From positions 28,372 to 92,371 of the forward strand of contig CAYTEO010000004.1 of NCBI GenBank assembly GCA_964436825.1: a stretch of DNA of 64,000 nucleotides. The letters run 5' to 3'. Within the stretch, counting starts at the first letter, position 1, and the number at the start of each line of letters is the position of its first letter. The notes beneath the pieces were generated by a model. The model did not search any database. It was not told the origin of the DNA and saw nothing but the letters and a program-made list of their open reading frames with translations. A program made the position numbers and the translations under genes. Shown in pieces: positions 4,394 through 54,824 of this stretch. The stretch comes from an uncultured Fibrobacteraceae bacterium. GTDB taxonomy: Bacteria > Krumholzibacteriota > Krumholzibacteriia > LZORAL124-64-63.

Positions 4394-6300
4394 ATGAATC
4401 GCCCTCATCGCCGATTCTGGCACACCGTCGTGGCGGTGTCCACGGCCCTGCTGGTCGTGGTCGCCGTCGTGGCGATGGCGATCCGCGGACGGCACGACGA
4501 CGGGCCCAGGACCATCGACCTCTCCCGCCTGCCCCGGCACCTGCCCTACGCGTTCCGTCTTCCGAGAACCACCTACCGTTACACCTTTCGACAAGGCTAC
4601 AATTACCTGTTCACGCGGGACGAGTCCGGCACGGTCAGGTCGTACTCGTTCAACGATGTGGGCCTGGTGGCGGACCGCTGGCGGGGCAAGCGATTCGAGG
4701 ATCTCTGGCAGCACAATCCGCCACCCGCTTCGGACCGGTCTCGCAGGCGCGTCTCTCCCTCGCCCACGACGTGGACGGAGACGGCCGCACGGATGTCCTG
4801 CTGGCGCTCTCCACACCCGACGGCAGCGAGTGACTGGTGGAGGGGCTGGACCGGGACAGCAGCACCGTCCTGTCCCGCGTGACGTTGACCGGTGGGCCTG
4901 ACCTGCGCGAGGACGGCCGCTGGGACGGACTGTATCACGTGGTGGGACTGGACGAGGTGCCGGCAGGGGGTGAGACGGTTCGCGCCTGCATCATGATCGT
5001 CCTGGCCGGTCACGATCGGGTTCCCCGCGGTGCCCTGGCGGTGGCGGTGGATGACGGCCGTGTTCTCTGGGAGTACAGGATGGGCGCGAAGCCCGCCCTG
5101 GAGTACACCTTCCTCGCCGACCTGGACGGCGACGGCCGTCGTGAGCTGCTGGTGGCGATCAAGGACAGGGTCCGCGACCACGGCGCCCTGCTGGTCCTGG
5201 ACCCCGCTTCCGGACGGCAGAGGACCGCACTGGTGTGGCCCCAGGGTCTGGTCGGGCCTGTCCTGGTGCCGGGAGGGGACGGACCCGCAGAGCTGCTGGT
5301 CTCCTCCTGGGACGGTGATCTGCATCTGTTCCGCTGGGACGGCGGCCCACCGCCCTGGCTGCCGCTCCCGCCCGCCCTGCTGGTCGCGATCGGCGCCTGG
5401 TGGTATCTGCGTCGACGCCGCCGCAGCAGCAGCGTGGCGCGCATGGCGCGACGCCAGCTGCTGGCGTCGCTACGCCTGGCCAACCATGGCGCCACGGGAC
5501 AGGCCCACGCGCTGCAGGCCTATGTGGGTCTGCTGCGGATCGCCGCCTCCGGGAGGGGGGACGAGGAGCGGCTCCGCCGGCGCCTCGCCGACCGCGCGGC
5601 GGACCTGCTGGACGGGACGCTGCCCGAGCTGCGCGAGCAGCTGGACATGGCCCGGCTGGCCGGCCTGGACGAGCACGAGATCGCCCTGGCGGAGGCCTGC
5701 GCGGCGCGGATCGAGGAGCTTGTACAGGAGACGGAGGCGGCGCCGACGGTTGCGCGCTGCCGTGCCGTCGCCGACGAGCTGGCGGGACAGGCGGATCGCC
5801 TGGCGGGGCACCTGCGTGCCCTGCGGCGGGAGATCCTGCGCGGCTTCCGTACCGACCCCGCGGCGGTACAGCGGCGGGTCCTGGACGCGCACGCCGCCAT
5901 GATCGAGAAGGACGGCGTGACGCTGGATGCCCCCGATCCCCGGGTTCCGCCGGTGGCGGTGGCGCCGGAGGACCTGACCTTCATCCTGGATAACCTGGTG
6001 GCCAACGCCCTGCAGGCCATGGCCGGCGGCGCGACGCGGCGGTTGTCGTTGACGTGGGAGGCCGCTGGGGAGAGGGTGGTCTGCCGCGTGGCGGACACCG
6101 GCTGCGGCCTGCCGCGTGATCTGTGGGAGCGTGCCCTGGACACCACTTTCTCCACGCGCGAGGGCGGCGGGACGGGCCTGCCGGCCTCGCGGGAGAAGCT
6201 GCGGGCCTGTGGGGGCAGCCTGGAGATCGAGAGCAGCGAGGTGGGTCGGGGGACGGTCTTCGTCCTGACCCTGCCGGTCGTGGAGGAGGGGGCGGCGTAA
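4394..6300 (+). pseudogene. sensor histidine kinase (TM - periplasmic FG-GAP/beta-propeller-like sensor - TM - HATPase_c), reading frame disrupted by one frameshift (~4715-4745) and an in-frame TGA (4831-4833)
   Basis: Frame 2 from ATG 4394 gives TM1 (WHTVVAVSTALLVVVAVVAMAI) and a plausible periplasmic sequence up to …FEDLWQHNPP. Frame 1 then reads …RFGPVSQARLSLAHDVDGDGRTDVLLALSTPDGSE, stops at TGA 4831, and continues as LVEGLDRD…FLADLDGDGRRELLV…TM2 (LLVAIGAWWYL)…N-box LDNLVANALQA, G1 DTGCGLP, G2 GGGTGLPASR. The DxDGDGRxxLL repeats continue across both breaks, so this is one gene. Confidence 0.6.
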
Positions 6301-6330
6301 CCGTGCCGCGGCAGAAGGGGGGAGAACGCG

Positions 6331-7506
6331 ATGACGAACGGGACGTCCCGCCCGCGCGTCCTGCTGGTGGACGACGACCGGGCCTTCTGGGAGGACCTGG
6401 CCCTCTACCTGGAGGCGGACCACGAGCTGTTCTTCGCACCGGACCCGCTCGCCCAGCGGCGCGACGGGCGCCGCTCCCGCGGCGACCTGGTCCACGCCGA
6501 CCCAGCCATGGCCCGCCTCCTGGACCACCTGGCCGCGGTGGCCGCCACCGACACCACCGTCCTGCTGACCGGCGAGAGCGGCACCGGCAAGGAGATGGTG
6601 GCCCGCTGGATCCACGAGCGCAGCGGGCGTGCCGACGGTCCCTTCTGGGCGGTCCACTGCGCGGCCCTGCCGGAGAACCTGATCGAGAGCGAGCTGTTCG
6701 GCCACGTCCGCGGTGCGTTCACCGGCGCGGACCGCGACCACGCCGGCGCCTTCGACCTGGCCCGGGGCGGCACGCTGCTGCTGGACGAGATCGGCGAGGC
6801 GCCCATGGCCGTGCAGGTGAAGCTGCTGCGGGTGCTGGAGAACCGGGAGTACAAGCGGGTGGGCGGGGAACGGATGCTGCGGACCGACGTCCGCCTGGTC
6901 TGCGCCACGCGCCGGGACCTGCGCCGGGAGGTGGCCGCCGGCCGTTTCCGCGACGACCTCTTCTACCGCATCAGCGTGGTGCAGGTGGAACTGCCGCCGT
7001 TGCGCGTGCGCCGCGGGGACATCCCGCGGCTGGCCGAGCACTTCGTCCGCCTCTACGCCGCACAGCTCGGCAAGCCGCTGGTGGGCCTGACAGAGGCGGC
7101 CCTGCAGGACCTGGCGGGCCGCTCCTGGCCCGGCAACGTGCGCGAGTTGCGCAACGTCATCGAGCGGGCCGTCATCGTGGCGCGCGGCGACCGGGTGACC
7201 CTGGCCGACCTGGCCGTCCCCTCCACCCTGACCGCCGCCGCGGACTTTCCGCACTACGAGTCCCTCAAGCAGGCCACGCAGCTCGAGTTCGACACGGGCT
7301 ACATGCTGGAACTGATGATCCGCGCCCGGGGCAACGTCATCCGCGCCTCGGAGCTGAGCGGCCTGTCGCGGACCTCCATCTACCGGCTGCTGGACCGCAC
7401 CGGCTTGCGCGAGAAGTTCGAGACCGGATATTTCAAGCGCCGGCCCGTCGAGGGAGACGCCTGCGAGGAGGAAAACGATGAAGGACAGGGTGTCGCGGTT
7501 TCGTGA
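6331..7506 (+). CDS. sigma-54-dependent transcriptional activator (NtrC/Fis family) with a truncated, non-functional-looking receiver N-terminus
   Basis: AAA+ sigma-54 interaction domain: Walker A GESGTGKE, ESELFGH, GAFTGA, arginine finger region, and a C-terminal Fis-type HTH (TSIYRLLDRTGL). N-terminus RVLLVDDDRAFWEDLALYL looks like receiver beta1-alpha1, but only ~55 aa precede the AAA+ domain. Confidence 0.85.
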   Translation: MTNGTSRPRVLLVDDDRAFWEDLALYLEADHELFFAPDPLAQRRDGRRSRGDLVHADPAMARLLDHLAAVAATDTTVLLTGESGTGKEMVARWIHERSGRADGPFWAVHCAALPENLIESELFGHVRGAFTGADRDHAGAFDLARGGTLLLDEIGEAPMAVQVKLLRVLENREYKRVGGERMLRTDVRLVCATRRDLRREVAAGRFRDDLFYRISVVQVELPPLRVRRGDIPRLAEHFVRLYAAQLGKPLVGLTEAALQDLAGRSWPGNVRELRNVIERAVIVARGDRVTLADLAVPSTLTAAADFPHYESLKQATQLEFDTGYMLELMIRARGNVIRASELSGLSRTSIYRLLDRTGLREKFETGYFKRRPVEGDACEEENDEGQGVAVS

Positions 7507-43681: not shown

Positions 43682-44077
43682 TCACCACGGCTGCCGCCAC
43701 GCCGGCGGTTCGCCCAGCCAGCCCTCGCGCCGGTGGGCGACGCGGACGTAGGTCGTGATCCCGCCGCGGACGAACCACTTGGCGTCGATCTCCAGGAACC
43801 ACGGATCGAGCAGCCGGACCAGGTCGGCCAGGATCTCGCCGGTCACCCTCTCGTGGAAGGCACCCACGTCGCGGTAGGTCCACAGGTAGAGTTTCAGGGA
43901 CTTCAGCTCGACGCACAGCTCCCGCGGGATGTAGCGGATCTTGAAGTGGGCGAAGTCCGGCTGCCCGGTCAGGGGGCAGAGGCAGGTGAACTCCGGGCAG
44001 TCGAACAGGATCTCGTACTCCCGGTCCGGGTGGGGGTTCGGGAACGTCTCCAGGTCGCGGGACGGCTGGGTCGGCAT
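43682..44077 (-). CDS. queF: NADPH-dependent 7-cyano-7-deazaguanine (preQ0) reductase
   Basis: Start ATG 44077 (MPTQPSRD…). QueF motifs ILFDCPEFTCLCPLTGQPDFAHFKIRY (Cys nucleophile) and ELKSLKLYLWTYR. 131 aa, unimodular type. Confidence 0.85.
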   Translation of the reverse strand: MPTQPSRDLETFPNPHPDREYEILFDCPEFTCLCPLTGQPDFAHFKIRYIPRELCVELKSLKLYLWTYRDVGAFHERVTGEILADLVRLLDPWFLEIDAKWFVRGGITTYVRVAHRREGWLGEPPAWRQPW

Positions 44078-44296
44078 GCTGTGACCTCCGTTGGGGTTGG
44101 GTCCAGGATAGTGATCGCCGCCGCGGCGGGCAAGCCGACATCCGTTGGTGCGCCCCCGATCCCTAGGGGTTAGCATGGCCGACCGGAGGGGCCACCGGCC
44201 GGCGGGAGGTCAAGCCGCCCCCGCGCCGACCGATGGAACGGGGGTACCGCTGCGACAGGCGGCACGCGGGCCATGACCGAGCGACACGGGAGAGAG

Positions 44297-45853
44297 ATGT
44301 CGACGATCCGCTCGACATTCCGCCACGCCTCCGTCTACACCATGGCGGCGGTCCTGGGGAAGCTGATCAGCTTCTTCATGCTGCCGTTCTACGCCCATAT
44401 CCTGCAGGACGTCGGCTACGGCGTCATCGGGATGATCGACACGACGCTGGCCTTCCTCATGGGCCTGCTGGCCTACGGGGCCCGCGGGGGGATCGTCCGC
44501 CTCTACCACGAACATCCCGAGGGGAGGAAGAACGAGGTCGTCAGCACCGGCTTTCTGCTGGTGGGAATGACGGTCTTCGCCCTCGTGGGGCTGCTGTTGC
44601 CGTTCAGCGGGCTGATCAGCAGGGGGTTGCTGGGCGACAGCAAGTACGCCATCCTGCTGGTGATGGCGCTGGTCGGCTTCGCCCTGGAGCTGACCGGGCA
44701 GGCCGCGTCCTCCATCCTGCTGATCCAGCGGCGCTCCCTGTTCTATTCCGGCGTGGGCATGCTGCGCCTGTTCGTCGGGCTGGGGCTGAACATCTGGCTC
44801 GTCGTCATCCTGCGCTGGGACCTGTACGGCTATTTCCTGAGTTCCCTGCTGACCTCGCTGATCTCCAACGTCATCTTCATCGTCGCGGCGTTGCGGATCT
44901 GCGGCCGGCGCTTCGACCACGGGACGGCCCGGGAGCTGATCCGCTTCCAGCTGCCGCTGATCCCGGGCAACCTGGCCTCGTTCGTCTCGCGGCAGGTGGA
45001 GCGGATCCTCGTCCGCTACCAGATCGACCTGGCCAGCCTGGGCGTGCTGGAGATGGGCTACAAGTTCCCCGTCCTGATCAGCCTGCTGGTCACCCAGCCG
45101 TTCATGCGCTCCTGGAACACGACGCGCACCGAGATCGCCGACGAGCCGGGCGCCCCCCGGCAGATCGGCCAGATGTTCAGCTTCTTCCTGGCCCTGGTCG
45201 TCTTCGGCGGGCTGCTGATCGCCGTCAACATCAAGACGGTCCTGCACCTGCTGACCCCGCCCGAGTTCTGGCCGGCCTACCGGATCGCCCGGATCGACGT
45301 GCTGGCCCTCATTCTCACCGGCTGCTACTACCACGTCTCGTTCGGCCTCTACTACGCCAAGGACACCGCCACGATGTCCAAGCTGCGGGCCGCCACCTCG
45401 GTCGTGAAGGTCCTGCTCTCCTACCTGTTCATCCGCTTCTGGGGGCTGTACGGCGCCGCCTGGTCGGCGTTCATCACGGCCCTGATCCTGGCCACCGCCG
45501 GCGGGGTGCTGGCCCAGCGGCGCTACCGGATCGAGCTGGAGTGGCGCAAGATCGCCGCCGTCGTCGGCTGGGCAGTGGTCCTCTTCCTGCTGTTGACCCG
45601 GACCGACCTGCGGGTCCTGGGCGCCTGGCGATGGCTGGACGGCACGGCCCTCCCGCAGCTGGTCGACATTCTCTCCCGGACCCCCGTGGGGAGCTGGAAG
45701 GACGGCAAGGTCATGGCTCTCCTGTCGGAGCGGTCGGCCCTGACGGCCGATCTGGTCCTGCAGGTCCTGTTCTGCTTCGGCTACCTGGCCATCGTGCCCG
45801 CCCTCCATTCCGAGACCCGCCGCAGGCTCCTGCGCCGGATCGGTCTCGGCTGA
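44297..45853 (+). CDS. polysaccharide biosynthesis protein / oligosaccharide flippase (Wzx-like, MOP superfamily)
   Basis: ~14 TM segments. Conserved MOP-flippase N-terminus ASVYTMAAVLGKLISFFMLPFYAHIL and internal …FQLPLIPGNLASFVSRQVERILV. Confidence 0.7.
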   Translation: MSTIRSTFRHASVYTMAAVLGKLISFFMLPFYAHILQDVGYGVIGMIDTTLAFLMGLLAYGARGGIVRLYHEHPEGRKNEVVSTGFLLVGMTVFALVGLLLPFSGLISRGLLGDSKYAILLVMALVGFALELTGQAASSILLIQRRSLFYSGVGMLRLFVGLGLNIWLVVILRWDLYGYFLSSLLTSLISNVIFIVAALRICGRRFDHGTARELIRFQLPLIPGNLASFVSRQVERILVRYQIDLASLGVLEMGYKFPVLISLLVTQPFMRSWNTTRTEIADEPGAPRQIGQMFSFFLALVVFGGLLIAVNIKTVLHLLTPPEFWPAYRIARIDVLALILTGCYYHVSFGLYYAKDTATMSKLRAATSVVKVLLSYLFIRFWGLYGAAWSAFITALILATAGGVLAQRRYRIELEWRKIAAVVGWAVVLFLLLTRTDLRVLGAWRWLDGTALPQLVDILSRTPVGSWKDGKVMALLSERSALTADLVLQVLFCFGYLAIVPALHSETRRRLLRRIGLG

Positions 45854-45949
45854 TCCCGGCGACCGGCGCCGGTCGTGGACGAATGCGCACGACGAGGAAC
45901 CGCCCCGCTCCCGGGGGAGCGGGGCGGCTGCGCGGTGGACGGCGACCCG

Positions 45950-48900
45950 TTACTTGATCAGGGCCATGCGGTCGGTGAAGACGTGGTCTCCCGCCTCGAC
46001 GCGGTAGAAGTAGACGCCGGTCGGCATCTCCCGGCCCGCCTCGTCGCGGCCGTCCCACTGGACCGTGTGGACGGCCGCGGGCAGGCGCGCGTCCAGCAGG
46101 GTCCGGACCAGGTGCCCGGCCACGTCGTAGACCGCCACGCGCGTGCGGCTCTCCGCCGGCAGGGCGAAGCGGATCGTCGTCGTCGGGTTGAACGGGTTGG
46201 GGAAGTTGGGCTCGACGGCGAAGGCGCGCGGCACGCCGGGCAGCTCGCCGTCGTCGACACCCGTGCCCGCGCTGCAGCCCTGGCCCAGGGCGCCGATCTG
46301 GCCGCACCCGCCGCTGTTGCCGGCCAGGCACGGCGAGGTGTCGAACAGGGTGTAGTCGCCGGCGCCGGCGTCACAGAACTCGGGGTCGACCGACACGTTG
46401 CCCGCGGTGCCGGTGGGATCGGTGACGCCGTCGTAGTCGGCGGTCTGGTTCCCGTAGACGTCGTTGCAGTCGAAGGTGGGGCTGGCCGACGAGACGTGGA
46501 TCCCGTTGGCCACCGATGCCGACCCGGTGTTGAAGGCCACGATGTTGTGCGAGACGGCCGCGTCGGTACCCTGCAGGTACATCCCCCCGCCGCCGCCGCT
46601 GGAGAAGTTGTCGGCGAACGTGTTGCCGCTGACATCGGCGACCGGCACGCTGATCAGGTAGAGGCCGCCGCCCACGTAGTTGCCCGAGTTGCCGGCGACC
46701 AGGGAGGCGGTCAGGCTGAACGAGGCGGTGGCGTTGGCCACGATGCCGCCGCCGAACAGGCCCGTGTTGCCGGTGACGGTCAGGCTGTCCAGCTGGACCG
46801 TTCCCGAGGTGGCCAGCAGGGCGCCGCCGTACATGAACGTGCCGTCGGGGGTGACGGAGTTGCCGGTCAGGGCCACGGCCGTCAGCCGGAGCAGGTCCCC
46901 CTGGAACAGCAGTCCGCTCCCGTCGCCCTTGCTGGAGTTGCCGCTGATGCTGCCGCCGTGGGCGGTCAGCTGCATCCCGCCAGCCGAGTTGACGGCGTAG
47001 ATGCCGCCGCCGCTCTCCAGACCGGTATGGCCGGAGACGGTGCAGTCCTCAAGGGTCAGATCGGCGTCGACGGCATAGATGCCGCCGCCGAGGGGAGGTG
47101 TCGTGTTGGCGGCCAGGCCGGTGTTGTCCTCGATGACGCAGCCGCTGAGCGTCGGGGCGCCGCGGTAGACGTGGATCCCCCAGCCGTGGACGGCGCTGTT
47201 GCCGTGGACGTGGACGTTCTCCAGCACGGCGTTGGAGTCCTTCAGCAGGATCCCGCCCCCGCTGCCCAGCTGGCTGGCGCTGCCGCAGGCGTTGCCCGTC
47301 ACTTCCAGGTTGCGCAGGGTGGGCGAGGCGTTGGACACGATGATCCCGCCGCCGAAACGGCCGCTGAACGGGATGTTCGTGAAATAGTTCCCGCCTCCGC
47401 CGGTGCAGCGGAAGCCATCGACCACGACATCCGGACCGGCGGCGGCGTCGAACTGCAGGGTAGTCCCGGTGGCGATCCCCTGGATGATCGTCGGGTTGCC
47501 GAGCGGATCGCGGCTCCCGTACCCGCCGTCCCAGCCGCCCAGGTAGAGGAGCGCCTTGTCCGGCAGGGTCAGCGGACCGGCGACGACCGTCCCGCCGGTG
47601 AAGGCGATCGTGTCGCCGGGTGCCGACTCGTTGACGGCGTCGAACCAGTCCTCGAACTCGTCGGGCACCTGCTGGAAGTTGTCGCCCAGGGCCCGCAACA
47701 GGTTGATGCGGCCGGACCCGAGCAGGCCGACGTAGGAGGGATTGGCGTCGTCGACGGAGTCGCAGGTGCTCAGCAGCAGGTCCTGGACCTGGGTCGCCGT
47801 CCAGTCGGGATGGGCGGACCAGATCAGGGCCAGGGCCCCGCAGGTGATCGGCGAGGCGAAGGAGGTCCCGTTGACACTGGCGTAGGTGTGGGCTCCCGTC
47901 GTGTGGTCGTACCAGGTCGACTTGATCCCCTCGCCGGGCGCGCACAGCTCGATCCAGCTACCGTAGTTGGAGAAGCTGGATTTCTGGTCGCTGGCGTTGA
48001 CGGACGCCACCGACAGGACGTAGGGATGGGTGCCGTAGTACTCGGCGACGTCCGAGTCGTCGTTCCCGGCGGCGTTGACGATGATGGCGCCCTGGTTGTG
48101 GGCGTAGTCGGTGGCGTTGGCCAGGTAGCTGCTGGTCCCCCAGCTGCAGTTGAGGATCCGGGCACCCTTCTGGACGGCGTACATGATTCCCTGGGAGGCG
48201 TAGAGCATGGAGACGACGCCCAGGCTGGAGCCGTCGGGCAGCCAGCCCACGCGCACGGCCATGATCTTGACGCCGCCGGCGACACTGGCGATGCCCAGCC
48301 CGTTGTCCATGACCGCCCCGACGGTCCCGGCGCAGGCCGTGCCGTGGCTCTCGTAGTCCATGGGGTCGTTGTCCGGATCGAAGACGTCCTCGTCGGGGTA
48401 TCCGTCGCCGGAGTTGACGAAGTCCCACCCGCGGATGTCGTCCACCTTGCCGTTGCCGTCGTCGTCGAAGTTGGGCAGGCCGTTGTATTCCGGCCAGTTG
48501 ATCCAGATGGCGTCGGCCAGGTCGGGATGGTGCCAGTCGACGCCGGAGTCGATGATGGCCACGATGACGTTGCTGTCGCCCAGCGCCTCGGCCCAGCCGC
48601 CCACGGCGCGGATGTCCTTGCCGCCCATCGTCGTGTTGCGCAGGTACCACTGGTAGGGCAGCTCCGGGTCGTTGGGCAGGGGACGGTCGACGTAGTAGAG
48701 TTCGTCCTTGAGGACCTGGCTGACCTCGGGCAGCCTGGCGAAGTCGGCCATGGCGGCGTCGAGATCGGCATCCGGGGCCAGGGAGACGACCCACTCCCGG
48801 CTCATGTCGAAGCCGCCGGTCTTGTCAGGGGTCGGCGCGGTGGGGTAGGCCTGTTCCAGGCCGCGGACCCGGTGCGTCTCCATCAGGGTGCGCAGGCGGG

Positions 48901-49078
48901 GATCGTCGGGCACGAGGCCGCCGGCGCTCTTGACGCCGCTGGGCGCGTACCCGGGTTCGAAGCGGACGATGAAGTGATGTTTGGCGTAACCGGCAAAGCC
49001 GCCGGCGCCGGCCGTGACGGCCAGGGTGAGCGACATCAGGGCGGCCGCCAGGGCGAGACAGCGGGAGAGACGGTTCAT
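45950..49078 (-). CDS. S8 family subtilisin-like serine peptidase with beta-helix repeat region and T9SS/Por-type (FlgD-Ig-like) C-terminal sorting domain
   Basis: Signal peptide MNRLSRCLALAAALMSLTLAVTAGA. I9-like propeptide. Catalytic triad motifs VAIIDSGVD, HGTACAGTV, GTSFASPITCG. Long Gly/Asn-rich parallel beta-helix. CTD NPFNPTTTIRFALPAESRTRVAVYDVAGHLVRTLLD…GVYFYRVEAGDHVFTDRMALIK. Confidence 0.85.
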   Translation of the reverse strand: MNRLSRCLALAAALMSLTLAVTAGAGGFAGYAKHHFIVRFEPGYAPSGVKSAGGLVPDDPRLRTLMETHRVRGLEQAYPTAPTPDKTGGFDMSREWVVSLAPDADLDAAMADFARLPEVSQVLKDELYYVDRPLPNDPELPYQWYLRNTTMGGKDIRAVGGWAEALGDSNVIVAIIDSGVDWHHPDLADAIWINWPEYNGLPNFDDDGNGKVDDIRGWDFVNSGDGYPDEDVFDPDNDPMDYESHGTACAGTVGAVMDNGLGIASVAGGVKIMAVRVGWLPDGSSLGVVSMLYASQGIMYAVQKGARILNCSWGTSSYLANATDYAHNQGAIIVNAAGNDDSDVAEYYGTHPYVLSVASVNASDQKSSFSNYGSWIELCAPGEGIKSTWYDHTTGAHTYASVNGTSFASPITCGALALIWSAHPDWTATQVQDLLLSTCDSVDDANPSYVGLLGSGRINLLRALGDNFQQVPDEFEDWFDAVNESAPGDTIAFTGGTVVAGPLTLPDKALLYLGGWDGGYGSRDPLGNPTIIQGIATGTTLQFDAAAGPDVVVDGFRCTGGGGNYFTNIPFSGRFGGGIIVSNASPTLRNLEVTGNACGSASQLGSGGGILLKDSNAVLENVHVHGNSAVHGWGIHVYRGAPTLSGCVIEDNTGLAANTTPPLGGGIYAVDADLTLEDCTVSGHTGLESGGGIYAVNSAGGMQLTAHGGSISGNSSKGDGSGLLFQGDLLRLTAVALTGNSVTPDGTFMYGGALLATSGTVQLDSLTVTGNTGLFGGGIVANATASFSLTASLVAGNSGNYVGGGLYLISVPVADVSGNTFADNFSSGGGGGMYLQGTDAAVSHNIVAFNTGSASVANGIHVSSASPTFDCNDVYGNQTADYDGVTDPTGTAGNVSVDPEFCDAGAGDYTLFDTSPCLAGNSGGCGQIGALGQGCSAGTGVDDGELPGVPRAFAVEPNFPNPFNPTTTIRFALPAESRTRVAVYDVAGHLVRTLLDARLPAAVHTVQWDGRDEAGREMPTGVYFYRVEAGDHVFTDRMALIK

Positions 49079-49080
49079 GG

Positions 49081-49114
49081 CACGGACCTCACTCGTGTGG
49101 CACGGACCTCGACG
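49081..49114. repeat. 12-bp tandem direct repeat (GGCACGGACCTC x2, 10-bp spacer) abutting the S8 peptidase start codon
   Basis: On the minus strand it reads GAGGTCCGTGCC-acacgagt-GAGGTCCGTGCC-ATG. The proximal copy supplies the GAGGT Shine-Dalgarno. Confidence 0.5.
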
Positions 49115-49197
49115 GTTGGCGGGGGCGTACTAGATCGATGTTATTATAGCTCAATTCCCGAGGGGCTACAACGGGCGTGAGCCGGAGGTGGCGACGG

Positions 49198-50334
49198 ATG
49201 CGGGTGTTGCTGCTGGAACCCTACGACGGCGGATCTCACCGAGCCTTCCGGCTGGGGCTGGCCCGGCATTCCCGGCACCGGATCGAGGCGCTGACCCTCC
49301 CGGCCCGTTTCTGGAAGTGGCGGATGCGGGGCGCCGCCGTCTGGTTTGCCGACCGGATCGCCGGGCTGGCCGAGCCCGCCGACCTGCTGCTGGTGACCGA
49401 CTATCTCAACGTGGCCGATCTCAAGGGGTTGCTCCCGCCGTCCTGGCACCGGGTGCCGATCCTGCTCTACATGCACGAGAACCAGCTGACCTATCCCCTG
49501 TCGCCGGAGGAGGAGTTCGATTTCCACTTCGGCTTCACGAACATCGTCAGCTGCCTGGCCGCCGACCGGGTCGTCTTCAACTCCGGGTACCACCGCGACC
49601 TGTTCCTGGAATCACTGCCCGAATACCTGGGCCGGATGCCGGAGGCCGTTCCCCGCGACGTCCGCCCCCGCCTGGAGGCCAAATCGACGGTCCTGCCGGT
49701 GGGAATCGAGCGGCGACCGCACCCGTCGGACAGTTTCGCCCCCTACCTGGGCGGACGGTGCGAGCCGGGGCTGGGGCCGGACTGGCCCCGCGGCGGACGT
49801 CGGCACCTGGTGCTGTGGAACCACCGCTGGGAGTTCGACAAGCGTCCCGAACGGTTCCGGCGGGCGATCCTCCGGCTGGCCGACGCCGGTCTGGAGTTCG
49901 ACCTCGCCCTGCTGGGGGACCCCCGCGGGCACGAGGAGGTCTTCCAGCCCTTGCGCGATCGGCTCGGCGAGCGCATCGTGGCGTGGGGACATCAGCCCGA
50001 CCGCGGCGTGTACGAGCGGTGGCTCGAACGCGCCGACATCGTCGTCAGCACGGCGGCCCAGGAGTACTTCGGGATCGCCGTGGCCGAGGCGGTCCATGCC
50101 GGCGCCTATCCCGTCCTGCCGCGGGAGCAGGTCTATCCTTCCCTGTACGGTCGCCGCTGCCGCGGGCGACACCTCTACCGGGACGAGGACGAGCTGGTCG
50201 GATTGCTGACCGACCTGCTGACCGGCGACGGGTGCGGGCACGTCTGTTCCCTGCCCCTGGACGTGGACGAGGCCTGCTGGGAGCGGCTGGCCCCCCGGTA
50301 CGACGAGCTGTGCGAGGAGATGTGCCGCCGATGA
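49198..50334 (+). CDS. DUF3524-domain glycosyltransferase (GT4-like; homologous in architecture to eukaryotic GTDC1/QTMAN tRNA-queuosine mannosyltransferase)
   Basis: GGAGGTG RBS 7 nt before ATG 49198. Hallmark DUF3524 N-terminus MRVLLLEPYDGGSHRAF. C-terminal GT1/GT4-type region …VSTAAQEYFGIAVAEAVHAGAYPVLP… (EX7E-like). Confidence 0.75.
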   Translation: MRVLLLEPYDGGSHRAFRLGLARHSRHRIEALTLPARFWKWRMRGAAVWFADRIAGLAEPADLLLVTDYLNVADLKGLLPPSWHRVPILLYMHENQLTYPLSPEEEFDFHFGFTNIVSCLAADRVVFNSGYHRDLFLESLPEYLGRMPEAVPRDVRPRLEAKSTVLPVGIERRPHPSDSFAPYLGGRCEPGLGPDWPRGGRRHLVLWNHRWEFDKRPERFRRAILRLADAGLEFDLALLGDPRGHEEVFQPLRDRLGERIVAWGHQPDRGVYERWLERADIVVSTAAQEYFGIAVAEAVHAGAYPVLPREQVYPSLYGRRCRGRHLYRDEDELVGLLTDLLTGDGCGHVCSLPLDVDEACWERLAPRYDELCEEMCRR

Positions 50335-51176: not shown

Positions 51177-52038
51177 GAGCGCCGCAGTCTCGACCAGGGA
51201 CCAGACCCGCCTGCAACAGCTCTCCCTGGCCGTCTGGGAGATGGAGCAGCTGCCCCGCGAGCAGCTGCGCGAGCCCCTCGTCCGCCGCCAGTACCTGCGC
51301 GCCCAGCAACAGCTGCTGGCCGAGCAGGAGGCGGTCGCCGACATCGCCCCGGAGGCGCGGTCCCGCCTGCTGCTCCGCGAGGAGTCCCCGTCGGCGGCCC
51401 TGCTCGTCCACGGATCCACCGGCGTGCCGTCGGACCTGCAGGGGCTGGCCGACTCGCTCCACGCCTCCGGCCTGACGGTCTGGAACCTGCGCCTGCCGGG
51501 CCACGGCCTGCCCGGCGTGGAGCGCCCGCCCGTCACCTGGCGCGCCTGCGCCAATGCCGTGCGCAGGGCCTTCGGCATCCTGGACCGCTGCCACGAGCGG
51601 GTCCACCTGGTCGGTTTCAGCTTCGGGGCGGCCCTGGCCGTCGTCCTGACCCGCAAGGTCCGACCGGCCTCCCTGGCGCTGCTGTCGCCGGCGCTGCTGC
51701 CCCGCGTGCCGTGGCGGTTCCGGATCCTGCTCTGGCTGCGGATGCACCGGTTGCCGTGGCTGCGTCGCCGCTTCGGCTGGGACCTGGAGGTCCTGGAGGC
51801 CATGCAGCAGGCCCGCGCCCAGATCGGCCGGCTGCGACTGCCCGTCTACGCGGCCCATTGCGACGACGACGAGCGGATCGATCCCGGCTCGCTGCGCCTG
51901 TTGCAGCGGCGGGTCAAGGACCGGGTCTCCCGCTTCCGGCTCTACCCCCAGGGCGGTCACATGATCCTGCGCGCCCACGGCCCGGCGGGACTCTACCGGG
52001 AGATCCAGGATTTCCTGGAGGCCGACCGGGCCCGCTAG
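51169..52038 (+). CDS. alpha/beta-fold hydrolase (esterase/lipase family)
   Basis: Overlaps the HAD stop by 8 nt. Nucleophile elbow HLVGFSFGAALAV (GxSxG). HGSTG oxyanion-type motif. Catalytic Asp/His region …DDDERIDP…GGHMIL. Confidence 0.65.
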   Translation: MSESAAVSTRDQTRLQQLSLAVWEMEQLPREQLREPLVRRQYLRAQQQLLAEQEAVADIAPEARSRLLLREESPSAALLVHGSTGVPSDLQGLADSLHASGLTVWNLRLPGHGLPGVERPPVTWRACANAVRRAFGILDRCHERVHLVGFSFGAALAVVLTRKVRPASLALLSPALLPRVPWRFRILLWLRMHRLPWLRRRFGWDLEVLEAMQQARAQIGRLRLPVYAAHCDDDERIDPGSLRLLQRRVKDRVSRFRLYPQGGHMILRAHGPAGLYREIQDFLEADRAR

Positions 52039-52188
52039 CCTCCCCGTGGCCCGTGTTGCCCGACGCCCGTCGGGGATTGCAAGGTGCCGTCTTGCCCTGC
52101 TGTGGCCCAGGAGGCCCCATCGTTTCCCCGGTTCATGTAACATGGCTCATTGCAACGAGTTGTAGCGATCGTGGCCCGGTCCTGGACG

Positions 52189-52215
52189 GTGCCCGTCGCG
52201 GGCACGTCCATTGCA
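52189..52215 (+). promoter_or_regulatory. sigma-54 (-24/-12) promoter candidate upstream of the HTH / STAS-GAF gene pair, overlapped by a 7-bp GC-rich inverted repeat
   Basis: gGGCACG-tcca-TTGCA (52201-52215) fits the TGGCACG-N4-TTGCW consensus with exact GG-N10-GC spacing. Predicted +1 ~52226, 40 nt before ATG 52266. IR GTGCCCG-tcg-CGGGCAC (52189-52205) overlaps the -24 element. Further upstream lie palindrome CATGTaACATG (52134-44) and repeats CATTGCAAC / CATTGCAGC. Confidence 0.5.
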
Positions 52216-52265
52216 GCGTCCGGCGCGCGAGACAGATCCCCAGCCTCCGGGAGGATACAGACACC

Positions 52266-52484
52266 ATGATCGACACCCAGACGCGCGCCCCGATCTACAT
52301 CGGCGGCGAGGAGAACACGCACCAGGTGATGACCTCCGTCGAGGCGGCCGAGTACCTGCAGATGCACGTCAAGACCATCTGTCGGCTGGCGAAGGAAGGG
52401 AAGATCCCGGCCCGCAAGGTGGGTAGCGAGTGGCGGTTCCTGCGCAAGGTCCTGGATCGCTGGCTCGCCGACGAGATGGAGTGA
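52266..52484 (+). CDS. excisionase-family helix-turn-helix DNA-binding protein (MerR-like HTH_17)
   Basis: GGGAGGAT RBS before ATG 52266. MTSVEAAEYLQMHVKTICRLAKEGKIPARKVGSEWRF matches the excisionase/HTH_17 consensus (LTVxEAAxxLGVSxxTIYRLxxxGxIPAxKVGxxWRF). 72 aa. Confidence 0.7.
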   Translation: MIDTQTRAPIYIGGEENTHQVMTSVEAAEYLQMHVKTICRLAKEGKIPARKVGSEWRFLRKVLDRWLADEME

Positions 52485-52485
52485 G

Positions 52486-53466
52486 ATGCCTCTGACGATC
52501 GAGCCGCAGCGGACTGCCGGGGAGCGCATCGCCGCGTTCCGCGTGACGGGGACACCGGTCCCGGACGAGGGCCGGGACCTGGTGTCCCATCTTCGCGACG
52601 GCATCCCGGACCGGGCGGAGGAGATCCATCTCGACCTGGCCGGCGTCACGGCGATGCCCGACGATCTGGCCAGGGCCCTGGTCTCTCTCTGGCGCGATCT
52701 GCAGGACCGGGGCACCGGTCTGCGGATCACCGGCACCACCGTCGTCGTCGGCTGGGTGCTGGCCCGCCACCTGGGGCCGGTGGCGGCGGAGGTCCTGGGC
52801 GACGAGCGCTGGGCGGTGCTGGCCGGCGGCCGGAAGCGGGCGGGGATCCCTGTCGACAGGCAGGAGCGTCCCGAGCGCGACGTGGCCGTCCGCCTGCAGT
52901 TCCGCCTGCGGGAGGCCGCCGATCCTGTCGCCGTGGAGCGGGAGATCGCCGCCACCCTGACCCGGTGCGGACTGGCGGCAGGGGTCGTGCTGGCGATAAG
53001 CAGCGGCGGCCGCCTCCTCGTGCCCGGAAGCGGGGAGGTCCATCCCGTCCCCGCCTCCGGCTGGCTCGGTTCCCTGCTGGCGAGTGCCGACTGTCCGCTG
53101 GCCACCGACGAGATCGACCTCGCCGGACTGACCCTGGAGGAGCGTGCCCTGCTGAAGTGGTCCGGCGCGGACCTGCTGGTCCCCCTGCTCCACGGGGGCG
53201 AGCTGCGGGGGCTCCTGCTGCTGCGCAGTGGTCGCGAGGCCGGCCTGGCCGGCTACCGGTCGGGAGAGGTGCTGGCCCTGGACCTGCTGGGACGTTCCCT
53301 GGCCGGGCATCTGGCGGCCGTCGCCGGACGCCTGGACGGAACCCTCGTCCCGGGCTCGAAGGTGGAGACCCGGACCTGGGGCGGCACTACCCGCGAGGAC
53401 GGAGCGAGTACCGTCGTCGGGCAGCACGTGGCCGTGGCCGATCCCACACCGGTTGCAGTCTGCTGA
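52486..53466 (+). CDS. STAS-like (anti-sigma-antagonist-like) domain + GAF-like domain protein, function unknown
   Basis: ATG 2 nt after the HTH gene stop. N-terminal …IHLDLAGVTAMPDDLARALVSLWRDLQDRGTGLRITG resembles STAS. Residues ~150-290 (…LAAGVVLAISSGGRLLVPGSGEV…LLVPLLHGGELRGLLLLRSGRE…LALDLLGRSLAGHLA) resemble a GAF fold. High GC3 throughout. Confidence 0.5.
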   Translation: MPLTIEPQRTAGERIAAFRVTGTPVPDEGRDLVSHLRDGIPDRAEEIHLDLAGVTAMPDDLARALVSLWRDLQDRGTGLRITGTTVVVGWVLARHLGPVAAEVLGDERWAVLAGGRKRAGIPVDRQERPERDVAVRLQFRLREAADPVAVEREIAATLTRCGLAAGVVLAISSGGRLLVPGSGEVHPVPASGWLGSLLASADCPLATDEIDLAGLTLEERALLKWSGADLLVPLLHGGELRGLLLLRSGREAGLAGYRSGEVLALDLLGRSLAGHLAAVAGRLDGTLVPGSKVETRTWGGTTREDGASTVVGQHVAVADPTPVAVC

Positions 53467-54044
53467 TCCGTTCCTGGCGTTCCATCGCTCCCTGTCCCGT
53501 TCCTGCGACACACTGCTATCACCATGTCCCTTCCTCGGTTGGGGGCCGTCATCGGTGTGCGGCCACCGGGCTCGTCCGTATGCGGGACAGGTGCGGGCGA
53601 CGGCCGGAGCCTGTCCGGATGGGGGACACCCACGTAACTGTCTGCTGGCGAATACGATAGGGCGACGACGTTGCCGGTCCCGTTCCCTCTGGCCCGTGGA
53701 CGGTCCCTTGCACTCGCGGGGTGGGGGTGACGGTCCCGGGAATGGGAGGCTCGAGGCCGTCACAGGGCAACGCCGGTGCGAGGGGAGGGCGCCTGCCCCC
53801 TCGTACCGGCCACCCACCCCGGCGGATGCTTCCTCACGGGACGGAGACACGGCGGGTCGCTCGCTGCGGCTGAACATCGACCAGCGGGTGGTGCGTCGGC
53901 AGGAGGGATGGGAGCCGCCGGACCATTTCCCCCCGGTCCGGGGACCGCTTCGGCGAAGGAGATCATGATCCCGTGGTGGCGGTCCGGGCGTTCGGCAGCA
54001 CGACCGGCAACTGTCGAACGCCCCGGCTCGCACCGTCGTGTCGC

Positions 54045-54824
54045 TCAGGTCGCGACGCTCTTCTTCGCTTCCCGGGCCAGGATCCGGTTGAGCATGGCCG
54101 TCAGGTCGTCGGTCGAGAGCCCTCTTTCGATCCGGCCCTGGTAGGCCAGGGAGATGGCCCGGGTCTCCTCGGAGACGACGATGACGACCGCGTCGGAGAC
54201 CTCGGTCAGGCCGATGGCGGCCCGATGGCGGGTGCCGAGCTGGTAACTCAGCTCGGTCTGCTCCGAGTTGGGCAGGATGCAGGCGGCCGCGGCGATCCGG
54301 TCCTCGCTGATGATGATGGCGCCGTCGTGCAGGGGCCCAGGGACGGTGAAGATGGACTCGATGAGCTCGCTGGAGATCTTGGCGTCCAGCTCCGTTCCCG
54401 TCTTGATCCAGCGTCCCAGGCCGATCTCCCGCTCCAGGACGATCAGGGCACCCAGGCCACGCCGGCTGAGTCGCTCGGTGGCCTTGATGATGTCGTTCTG
54501 GGCCGGGATCTCGTTGGTCGTGGAGAAGAACTTCAGCAGGCGCCGGCGCCCCAGGTAGGTCAGGGCCGTCCGCAGCTCGGGCTGGAAGATGATCAGGAAG
54601 GCGACGACCCAGACCGTCTGCAGCGAGGAGATGATCTGCCGCAGGACGATCATCCCGGTGCGGTCGGCCACCCAGGCCATCAGCACCAGGATTCCCAGAC
54701 CCGCCAGCATCTGGATGGCGCGAGTGCCGTAGACCAGCAGCAGGAGCCGGTAGATCAGCAGCGCCACCAGCAGGATGTCGAGCAGGTCGATCAGCAGGGA
54801 ATCGTGCAGGAACGAGCTCATGAT
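54045..54824 (-). CDS. cdaA: diadenylate cyclase CdaA (c-di-AMP synthase, membrane-anchored DAC domain)
   Basis: Start ATG 54824 (MSSFLHD…). Three N-terminal TM helices. DAC motifs PLHDGAIII (DGA) and GTRHRAAIG (RHR). Confidence 0.85.
   Translation of the reverse strand: MMSSFLHDSLLIDLLDILLVALLIYRLLLLVYGTRAIQMLAGLGILVLMAWVADRTGMIVLRQIISSLQTVWVVAFLIIFQPELRTALTYLGRRRLLKFFSTTNEIPAQNDIIKATERLSRRGLGALIVLEREIGLGRWIKTGTELDAKISSELIESIFTVPGPLHDGAIIISEDRIAAAACILPNSEQTELSYQLGTRHRAAIGLTEVSDAVVIVVSEETRAISLAYQGRIERGLSTDDLTAMLNRILAREAKKSVAT

What the first reader, a model, noticed from the sequence alone, without database searches (positions are those of the whole stretch)
52038..53466. Sigma-54-promoter-driven two-gene module: excisionase-type HTH protein translationally coupled to a STAS+GAF protein
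A near-consensus -24/-12 element (GGGCACG-N4-TTGCA, exact GG-N10-GC spacing) lies 40-65 nt upstream of a 72-aa excisionase-like HTH protein. Its stop sits 2 nt before the ATG of a 326-aa protein with an anti-sigma-antagonist-like STAS N-domain and a GAF-like C-domain. I know no characterised system that combines an Xis-type HTH (normally mobile-element recombination directionality) with a STAS-GAF partner under sigma-54 control, and there is no integrase nearby. A GC-rich palindrome (GTGCCCG-tcg-CGGGCAC) overlaps the -24 box, and a second palindrome (CATGTaACATG) lies ~60 nt further upstream at UAS distance. The only sigma-54 activator in the window (6331..7506) has a degenerate receiver.
Basis: partly seen in the sequence, partly recalled or inferred. 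Interest (0 to 1): 0.6.

Follow-up and report, generated by a model that had tools for sequence, protein, structure and literature searches.

The report
Conserved sigma-54 operon: mini-HTH plus STAS-GAF
This is a chromosomal two-gene regulatory unit, conserved across the uncultured phylum Krumholzibacteriota, in which a sigma-54 promoter drives a tiny, almost invariant DNA-binding protein and a sensor-like STAS-GAF protein; it is not a mobile-element excisionase, and nobody has yet described what it does.

Summary
GGGCACGTCCATTGCA (52200-52215) matches the sigma-54 -24/-12 consensus and lies 50 nt upstream of a 72-aa HTH_17 protein (52266-52484). Its TGA stop is 1 nt, not 2, from the ATG of a 326-aa protein (52486-53466).

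Pfam finds no domain in the 326-aa protein itself. Its family profile and an AlphaFold model show an N-terminal STAS fold and a C-terminal GAF fold.

The new evidence is comparative:
- The HTH gene occurs in 174 species-level genomes, almost all Krumholzibacteriota MAGs, usually in the same housekeeping neighbourhood and with no integrase nearby.
- GGCAY-N5-TTGC lies upstream of the HTH gene in 73 of 78 loci, against a background of 0.002 per equivalent stretch.
- A STAS-GAF partner follows in 74 of 78 loci.
- Most partners are about 750 aa (STAS-GAF-GAF-HD-GYP, with the HD histidine replaced). The window has a truncated form found in one sub-clade.
- A box TGCGGATTGCAA sits about 124-135 nt upstream of -24 in 68 of 73 promoters, window included.
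- Relatives also carry WTCC repeats phased every 10 bp. These are mostly lost in the window.

Best reading: a sigma-54/activator-dependent operon for a BldC/Xis-like small regulator and a ligand-sensing adaptor. This is a new variant of known kinds; the biochemical function is inferred, not shown.

The parts
52074..52082 (+). Conserved upstream box GGATTGCAA. The family consensus is TGCGGATTGCAAyG. It is a candidate activator-binding site (UAS), 124 nt upstream of the -24 GG.
   Evidence: the box is present in 68 of 73 orthologous promoters at fixed distances of -135 (29 loci), -131 (8) and -124 (19) from the GG. Background is 0.03 per equivalent stretch. The window copy has TTGCAA at 52077, which is -124. 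It aligns with the box in L089 and in the short-form loci. Binding by an activator is inferred, not shown.
52124..52135 (+). Remnant of the phased WTCC repeat array: TTCC at -77 and a degenerate TTCA at -69 relative to the -24 GG.
   Evidence: in relatives TTCC peaks at -79, -69, -59, -50, (-40) and -30, and pair spacings peak at 10, 20, 29-30, 39 and 48-50 nt, all on one strand; triple arrays are concentrated in this promoter within the 12-kb loci (23 of 56 hits), but none is present at the window promoter. Function is unknown.
52201..52214 (+). Sigma-54 -24/-12 promoter element GGCACG-TCCA-TTGC (GG 52201-52202, GC 52213-52214).
   Evidence: only exact match in the window. (73 of 78 loci carry it; GGCA and TTGC are invariant; GC content of the loci ranges 44-74%). 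(14 of 14 positions identical in L089 while the flanks diverge).
52225..52227 (+). Predicted transcription start, about 11-13 nt downstream of the -12 GC, giving a ~40-nt leader.
   Evidence: Inferred from the standard geometry of sigma-54 promoters; not measured. The leader shows no unusual RNA structure (z = -0.02).
52249..52255 (+). Ribosome-binding site GGGAGGA, 10 nt before the ORF1 ATG.
   Evidence: GGAG is conserved at this position in all short-form loci aligned.
52266..52484 (+). ORF1: a 72-aa single-domain HTH_17 (Xis/MerR-like winged-helix) protein, nearly invariant across the phylum.
   Evidence: HTH_17 E 2.3e-14; 'excise' domain above its cut-off. (closest solved relative by sequence is BldC 6ama, E 0.09). 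(174 species genomes; 567 clusters at 90% identity; 66-87% identical to the window protein). (36 invariant residues among 33 sequences). (third-position GC 0.90-0.95).
52486..52800 (+). ORF2 residues 1-105: STAS domain. The position of the phosphorylatable Ser of SpoIIAA is occupied by Pro58/Asp59.
   Evidence: STAS_2 and STAS hits in family members; SpoIIAA E 2.5e-4. (model pLDDT 85-91; SpoIIAA TMt 0.69-0.75, RsbS, RsbV). In the model the helix that follows the third strand starts at residue 59.
52882..53340 (+). ORF2 residues 133-285: GAF domain.
   Evidence: 3trc PtsP GAF E 4.5e-5, 3oov, 5w10 cAMP-binding GAF, 4mcw, 3k2n. In one search GAF_3 (E 1e-7) covers residues 387-498 of the L073 orthologue, and those residues align to profile positions 142-286 of the family.
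53341..53466 (+). ORF2 residues 286-326 plus the stop codon: a non-conserved tail that is probably disordered.
   Evidence: pLDDT is below 50. There is no conservation in alignment A1. Third-position GC falls to 0.62-0.75.

Best explanation
This is a chromosomal regulatory operon of Krumholzibacteriota that depends on sigma-54 and an activator. It is not part of a mobile element.

Supported by the evidence here:
- RNA polymerase carrying sigma-54 should recognise GGCACG-N4-TTGC at 52201-52214.
- The transcript encodes two tightly coupled genes (TGA-g-ATG). The first is a 72-aa, nearly invariant Xis/BldC-like winged-helix protein. The second is a 326-aa STAS-GAF protein.
- The second gene is the shortened version of a STAS-GAF-GAF-HD-GYP signalling protein that most relatives carry in the same position. 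Even there, the HD-GYP domain lacks the HD histidine.

Inferred, not shown:
- An as yet unidentified AAA+ activator binds the conserved box at about -124 (GGATTGCAA, 52074-52082) and opens the promoter complex in response to a signal. The fixed distances, one helical turn apart (-124 or -135), are what a face-of-helix-dependent activator site would show.
- The small protein acts as a DNA-binding transcription or architectural factor, in the manner of BldC or Xis. Those proteins bind direct repeats as head-to-tail multimers and bend DNA. It may feed back on its own promoter through the 10-bp-phased WTCC repeats seen in relatives.
- The STAS-GAF protein senses a small ligand through GAF and passes the signal on by protein-protein contact through its non-phosphorylatable STAS domain. 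The nearest candidate target is the co-translated HTH protein.
For: Promoter:
- Exact consensus in the window.
- Present in 73 of 78 orthologous loci against 0.0019 expected. GG and GC are invariant while the flanks carry 0.1-0.3 bits of information, across genomes of 44-74% GC.
- Identical in L089 while the flanks diverge.
- A GAFTGA-bearing activator in the same window shows that the organism uses sigma-54.

Operon:
- A 1-nt gap here and 1-11 nt in the short-form loci.
- A STAS-GAF partner follows the HTH gene in 74 of 78 loci.

Not a mobile element:
- The same neighbourhood recurs: S8 peptidase, QTMAN_N glycosyltransferase, HAD hydrolase, alpha/beta hydrolase, then HTH and STAS-GAF, converging on cdaA-folP-ftsH-tilS.
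- No integrase is recorded within 10 kb either side.

HTH identity.

ORF2 domains.

Long-form architecture and the HD-to-RD change.

Upstream architecture: box in 68 of 73 promoters at -135, -131 or -124. WTCC phasing on one strand is concentrated in this promoter within the 12-kb loci.

The BldC mechanism is taken from PMC5859096.
Against: - No transcription data exist. The start site, RpoN dependence and the cognate activator are all unverified, and rpoN is not in the window.
- No evidence bears on what the small protein binds or whether it touches the STAS-GAF protein.
- The AF2 model of the small protein came out as a helical hairpin with no winged-helix matches, so its fold rests on the profile match only.
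- Similarity to BldC is weak (PDB E 0.09; NCBIfam HTH_BldC 17.7 bits against a cut-off of 77).
- The phased repeats are largely lost in the window promoter. They are also absent from the sub-clade that lacks the sigma-54 motif. They may therefore belong to the promoter or activator machinery rather than to the HTH protein.
- Two loci (L018, L035) keep the promoter and HTH but have no partner gene, so the partner is dispensable in some lineages.
Confidence: 0.7

Rival explanations
1. ORF2 is a decaying relic. After the C-terminal GAF-HD-GYP half of the ancestral protein was lost, the remaining STAS-GAF stub no longer has a function, and only the HTH protein matters.
For: - The ancestral form is about 750 aa in ~57 loci; only 16 are short.
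- Two lineages lost the partner completely (L018, L035).
- The window protein falls below every Pfam threshold.
- Its last ~40 codons show weak codon bias and no conservation.
Against: - The short form is kept intact in 16 species-level genomes spanning 44-73% GC, including L005 and L007.
- Those members share conserved motifs (W90, G97, G162-L163, P233, L276), a conserved start and conserved coupling.
- They score 280-380 bits on the short-form profile, against at most 134 bits for long forms. This points to one old truncation followed by retention.
- AF2 folds both domains with pLDDT of about 90.
- Third-position GC is 0.85-0.97 over 280 codons.
Confidence: 0.1
2. This is a classical partner-switching module. 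The STAS protein is an anti-sigma-factor antagonist, like SpoIIAA or RsbV, that controls an anti-sigma kinase and sigma factor encoded elsewhere. The HTH gene is merely co-transcribed.
For: The STAS fold is closest to SpoIIAA, RsbS and RsbV, including structures solved in complex with their anti-sigma factors. The family profile hits SpoIIAA.
Against: - No SpoIIAB/RsbW-type kinase and no PP2C phosphatase is recorded within 10 kb either side or in the orthologous loci.
- The residue at the N-terminus of the helix that carries the phospho-serine in SpoIIAA is Pro58/Asp59 here. In the long forms it is Gly (GGGG).
- In most relatives the STAS domain is fused to GAF-GAF-HD-GYP rather than standing alone.
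Confidence: 0.08
3. ORF1 is a true excisionase or recombination directionality factor, or part of a defence island such as MADS (MAD1). On this reading the locus is a remnant of a mobile or defence element.
For: - The TIGR01764 'excise' domain scores above its cut-off.
- Best NCBIfam and PADLOC hits are MAD1 (49.7 bits; E 2e-8).
- Source databases label the orthologues 'excisionase family DNA binding protein'.
Against: - The MAD1 score is below its cut-off (49.7 against 80), and no other MADS protein is present. ORF2 has no PADLOC hit.
- No integrase is recorded within 10 kb either side.
- The gene sits at the same housekeeping position in about 70 species-level genomes and is 66-87% identical across them. 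That is the pattern of a vertically inherited core gene, not of mobile cargo.
Confidence: 0.02
4. The GGCAY-N5-TTGC motif is not a sigma-54 promoter. It is the operator of another DNA-binding protein, for example the HTH itself, and transcription starts from a different, unrecognised promoter.
For: No sigma-70-like promoter was found in the spacer, but promoter types in this phylum are unknown. No transcription start data exist.
Against: - The invariant positions are exactly the sigma-54 determinants (GG, then 10 nt, then GC, within GGCAY/TTGCW), at a typical distance from the start codon (mode 72-79 nt).
- The organism encodes a GAFTGA activator.
Confidence: 0.04

Closest known systems
BldC of Streptomyces (BldC family of small MerR/Xis-like regulators; PDB 6ama, 6amk; PMC5859096)
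   Same: - A ~70-aa protein made of a single winged helix-turn-helix, with no dimerisation or effector domain.
- Chromosomal and vertically inherited.
- It is the only solved structure reached by the ORF1 family profile.
- BldC binds direct repeats as head-to-tail multimers and bends DNA. Promoters of the orthologous operons carry same-strand repeats phased at 10 bp.
   Different: - Sequence similarity is marginal (E 0.09; NCBIfam HTH_BldC 17.7 bits against a cut-off of 77).
- BldC repeats are AT-rich (AATTnnnnC); here the repeat is WTCC.
- BldC is not known to be sigma-54-dependent or paired with a STAS-GAF gene.
- DNA binding by ORF1 is untested.
Excisionases / recombination directionality factors (lambda Xis, Tn916 Xis, TorI; TIGR01764, PF12728)
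   Same: Same domain family (HTH_17 E 2.3e-14; 'excise' 46.9 bits) and the same size.
   Different: There is no integrase, no att sites and no mobile-element context. Synteny is fixed in a housekeeping region across a phylum.
SpoIIAA / RsbV / RsbS anti-sigma-factor antagonists (STAS partner-switching proteins)
   Same: The fold of ORF2 residues 1-105 (TMt 0.69-0.75).
   Different: - The phospho-acceptor position is Pro/Asp.
- No cognate kinase or phosphatase is nearby.
- The domain is fused to GAF here, and to GAF-GAF-HD-GYP in most relatives.
GAF-HD-GYP cyclic-dinucleotide phosphodiesterases (PmGH 4mcw, PA4781 4r8z, V-cGAP3 5z7c)
   Same: - Long-form orthologues share the GAF plus HD-GYP arrangement (HD_5 E 1e-24 to 4e-32).
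- The window GAF model matches the N-terminal domain of 4mcw.
   Different: - The window protein has no HD-GYP domain and no remnant of one downstream.
- In the long forms the HD histidine is Arg in 40 of 41, so they are probably not enzymes.
- The N-terminal STAS domain and the upstream HTH gene are additions.
Sigma-54 promoters with upstream activator sites (glnAp2, nifH, pspA type)
   Same: - -24 GG and -12 GC at canonical spacing.
- A conserved upstream box more than 100 bp away, held in helical phase.
- An AAA+ GAFTGA activator encoded in the genome.
   Different: - The activator, its site and any bending factor are unidentified.
- The region where IHF would usually bind is occupied in relatives by a phased direct-repeat array.

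Membership tests
Sigma-54-dependent promoter | GG at -24 and GC at -12, separated by exactly 10 nt, within TGGCAC-N5-TTGCW | tested here: met
   GGGCACGTCCATTGCA at 52200-52215 has one mismatch, at the first T.
Sigma-54-dependent promoter | Conservation of the element upstream of orthologous genes | tested here: met
   73 of 78 loci carry it, against 0.0019 expected per stretch. It is identical in L089 while the flanks diverge.
Sigma-54-dependent promoter | The organism has sigma-54 and AAA+ activators | tested here: inconclusive
   An activator with Sigma54_activat (E 7e-67) and GAFTGA lies at 6331-7506. rpoN itself is not in the window, and the rest of the genome could not be searched.
Sigma-54-dependent promoter | Transcription start about 12 nt downstream of the GC, and dependence on RpoN and an activator | not testable with these tools
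   Needs transcription start mapping or reporter assays.
Excisionase / recombination directionality factor | Small winged-helix protein of the HTH_17 / TIGR01764 type | tested here: met
   HTH_17 E 2.3e-14; 'excise' 46.9 bits against a cut-off of 28.8.
Excisionase / recombination directionality factor | Encoded in an integrative element next to its integrase, with att sites | tested here: not met
   No integrase family is recorded within 10 kb either side. The gene sits at the same housekeeping position in about 70 species-level genomes.
BldC family | ~70-aa MerR/Xis-like winged helix without dimerisation or effector domains | tested here: met
   72 aa, with HTH_17 covering residues 22-69 and no other domain.
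BldC family | Sequence membership (NCBIfam NF033787 HTH_BldC) | tested here: not met
   17.7 bits against a cut-off of 77. PDB BldC E 0.09.
BldC family | Head-to-tail multimer binding to direct repeats with DNA bending | not testable with these tools
   Only circumstantial evidence exists: 10-bp-phased WTCC repeats in orthologous promoters, which are largely absent in the window.
STAS anti-sigma-factor antagonist (SpoIIAA/RsbV) | STAS fold | tested here: met
   Foldseek hits to 1tid, 1til, 1th8, 6jhk and 6m36, with TMt up to 0.75. The family profile hits SpoIIAA at E 2.5e-4.
STAS anti-sigma-factor antagonist (SpoIIAA/RsbV) | Conserved phosphorylatable Ser/Thr at the N-terminus of the helix after strand 3 | tested here: not met
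   The window has Pro58-Asp59 at the helix start. Long forms have GGGG. Some short-form relatives have Ser/Thr one position earlier, so the alignment is uncertain by one residue.
STAS anti-sigma-factor antagonist (SpoIIAA/RsbV) | Cognate anti-sigma kinase and/or PP2C phosphatase in the locus | tested here: not met
   None is recorded within 10 kb either side or in the orthologous loci.
GAF domain protein | GAF fold | tested here: met
   Residues 133-285 match 3trc (E 4.5e-5, TMt 0.62), 3oov, 5w10 and 3ci6. GAF_3 (E 1e-7) covers the equivalent region of L073.
GAF domain protein | Identified ligand (cNMP, tetrapyrrole and so on) | not testable with these tools
   No pocket analysis or binding assay was possible.
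HD-GYP phosphodiesterase | HD-GYP (PF13487) catalytic domain | tested here: not met
   It is absent from the 326-aa protein, and no remnant lies in 53200-54300. It is present in long-form orthologues, but with HD changed to RD.
MADS defence system (MAD1) | MAD1 equivalog score plus the other MADS genes | tested here: not met
   49.7 bits against a cut-off of 80. ORF2 has no PADLOC hit, and the neighbours are housekeeping genes.

The most novel reading that the evidence does not exclude
The 72-aa protein is a dedicated architectural factor for a sigma-54 promoter. Like Xis or BldC, it would polymerise head-to-tail on the 10-bp-phased WTCC repeats that lie between the upstream activator box and the -24/-12 element. 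That would take over the DNA-bending role IHF plays elsewhere and create a feedback loop on its own promoter. The co-translated STAS-GAF protein (in most relatives STAS-GAF-GAF plus a degenerate HD-GYP, possibly a cyclic-dinucleotide receptor) would bind the small protein and set the loop according to a small-molecule signal. This would be a new way of wiring second-messenger sensing into sigma-54 transcription, conserved across an uncultured phylum.
Probability: 0.12. Interest if true: 0.75.

Novelty: new variant of a known kind. Interest (0 to 1): 0.55.

Why it matters
Krumholzibacteriota have no cultured representative, and I found no study of their regulation.

This locus gives a concrete, phylum-wide regulatory unit with a readable promoter plan: an activator box held in helical phase, a phased repeat array, and a -24/-12 element. 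It also gives an exceptionally constrained 72-aa DNA-binding protein, with 36 invariant residues across genomes of 44-74% GC.

Three practical points follow:
- Genes routinely annotated as "excisionase family" can be core chromosomal regulators. Such labels should not be read as evidence of mobile elements in these genomes.
- The system is small enough to rebuild in E. coli (promoter, RpoN, candidate activators, two small proteins). The questions of what a BldC-like protein does at a sigma-54 promoter, and what a non-phosphorylatable STAS domain fused to GAF signals to, are therefore directly testable.
- The series long form, short form, no partner is a natural deletion series for working out what the partner contributes.

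Tried and rejected
- Direct Pfam and NCBIfam scans of ORF2 gave only a spurious sub-threshold DDE_5 hit (21.4 bits against 27) and a faint PrsK hit. The word-indexed homologue search found only ORF2 itself. The exhaustive HMMER search was needed to find the family.
- The search for related loci with the ORF2 alignment failed because no stretch was conserved enough. The HTH alignment worked.
- The AF2 model of the 72-aa protein (pLDDT 76.8) is a two-helix hairpin whose best PDB matches are ribosome recycling factor and ESCRT fragments at E > 3. I treat it as an artefact of a shallow alignment (about 75% identity) and did not use it.
- The afdb50 fold library was unavailable.
- A search for a remnant of the lost GAF-HD-GYP half in 53200-54300 found nothing better than E 0.002 inside ORF2 itself. 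No remnant of the partner gene was found in L018 or L035.
- The 578-nt spacer 53467-54044 and the upstream spacer show no nucleotide similarity to any other locus, no Rfam family and no coding signal.
- The predicted 5' leader has no unusual fold (z = -0.02).
- No sigma-70-like promoter or terminator was found between 51900 and 54030.
- A metagenome scan with the 15-mer upstream box, meant to find other members of a regulon, returned chance matches in 79 of 80 cases. The pattern is too short for that collection.
- An apparent 14-nt insertion inside the window's upstream box turned out, on alignment with L089, to be simple substitution of the first TTGC half.

Full report
**What is in the window.**
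Between the stop of an alpha/beta-hydrolase gene (52038) and ORF1 lies a 227-nt spacer. It contains:
- GGGCACGTCCATTGCA at 52200-52215, with GG at 52201-52202 and GC at 52213-52214;
- a GGGAGGA ribosome-binding site at 52249-52255;
- the ORF1 ATG at 52266.

ORF1 (72 aa) ends with TGA at 52482-52484. One base later, the ORF2 ATG at 52486 opens a 326-codon frame that ends at 53466.

Codon-position GC shows that both frames are coding. Third-position GC is 0.90-0.95 in ORF1. In ORF2 it is 0.85-0.97 until about 53300 and fades over the last ~40 codons. The 578 nt that follow, up to the convergent cdaA gene (54045), show no coding signal.

**Domain identity.**
ORF1 is a clear HTH_17 protein (E 2.3e-14) and passes the TIGR01764 "excise" domain cut-off. 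Its hits to MAD1, MamR and BldC are all below their cut-offs.

ORF2 has no significant Pfam or NCBIfam hit of its own, and a word-indexed search found only itself. An exhaustive HMMER search of 1.84 billion representatives found 17 proteins. In an alignment of 13 of them (A1):
- 6 members hit STAS_2, 5 hit STAS, and 2 hit GAF weakly;
- the family profile hits SpoIIAA in the PDB at E 2.5e-4 over profile positions 7-88.

An AlphaFold model built on A1 (mean pLDDT 77.9; residues 1-105 and 133-285 mostly above 85; linker and tail below 50) matches two kinds of structure:
- GAF domains: 3trc (E 4.5e-5, TMt 0.62), 3oov, 5w10, and the N-terminal domain of the HD-GYP enzyme 4mcw;
- STAS proteins: SpoIIAA (TMt 0.69-0.75), RsbS and RsbV.

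The helix that carries the phospho-serine in SpoIIAA begins here at Pro58-Asp59, so this STAS domain is not a canonical phospho-switch.

**Comparative evidence: context.**
The protein's own contigs and those of its homologues show the same gene order. That order is S8 peptidase, QTMAN_N glycosyltransferase, (HAD hydrolase), alpha/beta hydrolase, HTH_17, STAS-GAF, and then the convergent genes cdaA, folP, ftsH and tilS.

A scan of one genome per species with the HTH alignment found 174 genomes that encode a relative. The 80 loci returned are almost all labelled Krumholzibacteriota or Krumholzibacteriia, with a few evidently mislabelled bins. Synteny with the hydrolase and with cdaA-folP-ftsH holds in most of them. 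No integrase family is recorded within 10 kb either side.

The HTH protein is extraordinarily constrained. It forms 567 clusters at 90% identity, all 66-87% identical to the window protein. Among 33 sequences there are 36 invariant residues, even though those genomes range from 44% to 74% GC. This is the pattern of a vertically inherited core regulator, not of an excisionase.

**Comparative evidence: promoter.**
In 73 of 78 non-redundant loci, GGCAY-N5-TTGC lies 30-160 nt upstream of the HTH start codon (mode 72-79 nt). The same motif occurs only 25 other times in 1.76 Mb of both strands, or 0.0019 per equivalent stretch. GGCA and TTGC are invariant, whereas neighbouring positions carry 0.1-0.3 bits.

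In the closest relative found (L089, HTH 87% identical) the 14-nt element, spacer included, is identical while the flanks diverge. They are also absent from the other loci.

The window encodes an AAA+ activator with an intact GAFTGA loop (6331-7506), so the organism evidently uses sigma-54. rpoN itself is not in the window.

Within the window alone the motif would not be significant (0.16 expected). Its position and its conservation carry the argument.

**Promoter architecture found in addition.**
Two further conserved features appear when the promoters are anchored on the GG.

The first is a box, TGCGGATTGCAAyG, present in 68 of 73 promoters at -135 (29 loci), -131 (8) or -124 (19). The two main classes are one helical turn apart. 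The window has GGATTGCAA at 52074-52082, which is -124.

The second is a set of same-strand WTCC repeats at -79, -69, -59, -50, (-40) and -30, plus ATCCT at -108. Pairwise spacings peak sharply at 10, 20, 29-30, 39 and 48-50 nt. Triple arrays of this kind are concentrated in this promoter within the 12-kb loci. The window retains only TTCC at -77 and TTCA at -69, so this feature is degenerate here.

A five-locus sub-clade lacks the sigma-54 motif, the box and the repeats. There the HTH gene follows a receiver-like gene. The repeats therefore travel with the sigma-54 promoter rather than with the HTH gene alone.

**The partner gene is a truncated orthologue.**
A STAS-GAF family member follows the HTH gene in 74 of 78 loci. 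Only 16 are short (about 275-330 aa), like the window's. About 57 are 680-900 aa, with STAS, GAF, a second GAF and an HD_5/HD-GYP domain.

The short forms score 280-380 bits on the short-form profile, against at most 134 bits for long forms. This fits one old truncation that was then retained, including in 44%-GC genomes. Two loci (L018, L035) have no partner at all.

The window has no remnant of the missing half. Even in the long forms the HD dyad reads RD in 40 of 41. This motif aligns residue for residue to LLHDIGK of three solved HD-GYP enzymes, so the output domain is probably not catalytic.

**Mechanism.**
Supported by conservation: a sigma-54 promoter drives a coupled two-gene operon in a stable chromosomal position.

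Inferred:
- An AAA+ activator binds the phase-locked upstream box.
- The small protein works as a BldC/Xis-like DNA-binding factor. BldC is the only solved structure its profile reaches (E 0.09). BldC binds direct repeats as head-to-tail multimers and bends DNA (PMC5859096).
- The STAS-GAF protein is a ligand-sensing adaptor that signals by protein contact. The co-translated HTH protein is the obvious candidate partner.

There are no transcription, binding or interaction data. The AF2 model of the small protein was uninformative.

**Rivals.**
- A decaying relic ORF2 is unlikely, given intact retention across deep divergence and confident folding.
- Classical partner switching is unlikely, given no acceptor serine and no kinase or phosphatase.
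- An excisionase or MADS defence role is contradicted by the context and by sub-threshold scores.
- A non-sigma-54 reading of the motif is contradicted by which positions are invariant.

**Novelty and score.**
I found no paper linking Krumholzibacteriota with sigma-54. The only paper holding the terms STAS domain, GAF and HD-GYP together (PMC8717448, on photoglobins) was not read. The components all belong to known kinds: sigma-54 promoters, BldC/Xis-like mini-regulators, and STAS and GAF signalling domains. What is undescribed is the combination, its phylum-wide conservation and the promoter plan.

I rate it a new variant of a known kind, with interest 0.55. The finding is solid and makes several questions directly testable. 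The biological role is unknown, and the most interesting architectural feature, the phased repeats, is weak in this particular window.

Noticed in passing
L009-L083 long-form partner genes (for example L031 6222-8510): The HD-GYP domain of the long-form orthologues has Arg (40 of 41) or Cys (1 of 41) in place of the HD histidine. The motif LRD[IVL]G aligns to LLHDIGK of 5z7c, 4r8z and 4mcw. The distal D..D motif is E[NS][YF]V. The domain is probably a non-catalytic receptor or adaptor.
   Followed up: partly
L018 6219-7124 and L035 6219-7176: Two species keep the sigma-54 promoter and the HTH gene but have no STAS-GAF gene before cdaA, and no detectable remnant. Together with the long and short forms this makes a natural deletion series.
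   Followed up: partly
L017, L022, L024, L029, L032 (upstream of about 5990): A sub-clade lacks the sigma-54 motif, the upstream box and the WTCC repeats. There the HTH gene follows a receiver-like gene after a ~100-nt spacer. A GGCATATCACTTGCW motif lies about 4.5 kb upstream on the opposite strand.
   Followed up: no
window 53467-54044: A 578-nt spacer lies between the convergent ORF2 and cdaA. It has no codon-position GC signal, no Rfam match and no similarity to other loci. Comparable long spacers exist in other short-form relatives (720 nt in L003). It is unexplained.
   Followed up: partly
window 4837-7506: The only sigma-54 activator in the window (6331-7506, GAFTGA at nt 6712) has a ~50-aa N-terminal stub instead of a receiver domain. 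It directly follows a HATPase_c protein (4837-6300) that has no recognisable HisKA domain. This is an unusual kinase-activator pair. Whether it serves the 52201 promoter is unknown.
   Followed up: partly
window 43682-50334: A QTMAN_N plus glycosyltransferase gene lies close to a QueF-family gene, with tilS further along. QTMAN_N is the N-terminal domain of queuosine-tRNA mannosyltransferase. The arrangement hints at queuosine modification chemistry and is conserved in relatives.
   Followed up: no
L031 2611-5809; L060 917-5725: In long-form loci about 4 kb of genes with no Pfam family (proteins of 208-719 aa) sit between the alpha/beta hydrolase and the HTH operon. These genes are absent from the window.
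   Followed up: partly
window 52149-52155: A second ATTGCAA lies 73 nt downstream of the conserved box, at -52 from the GG, roughly where relatives have the WTCC repeats. Only four ATTGCAA occur on the + strand of the whole 64-kb window, and two of them are in this spacer.
   Followed up: no
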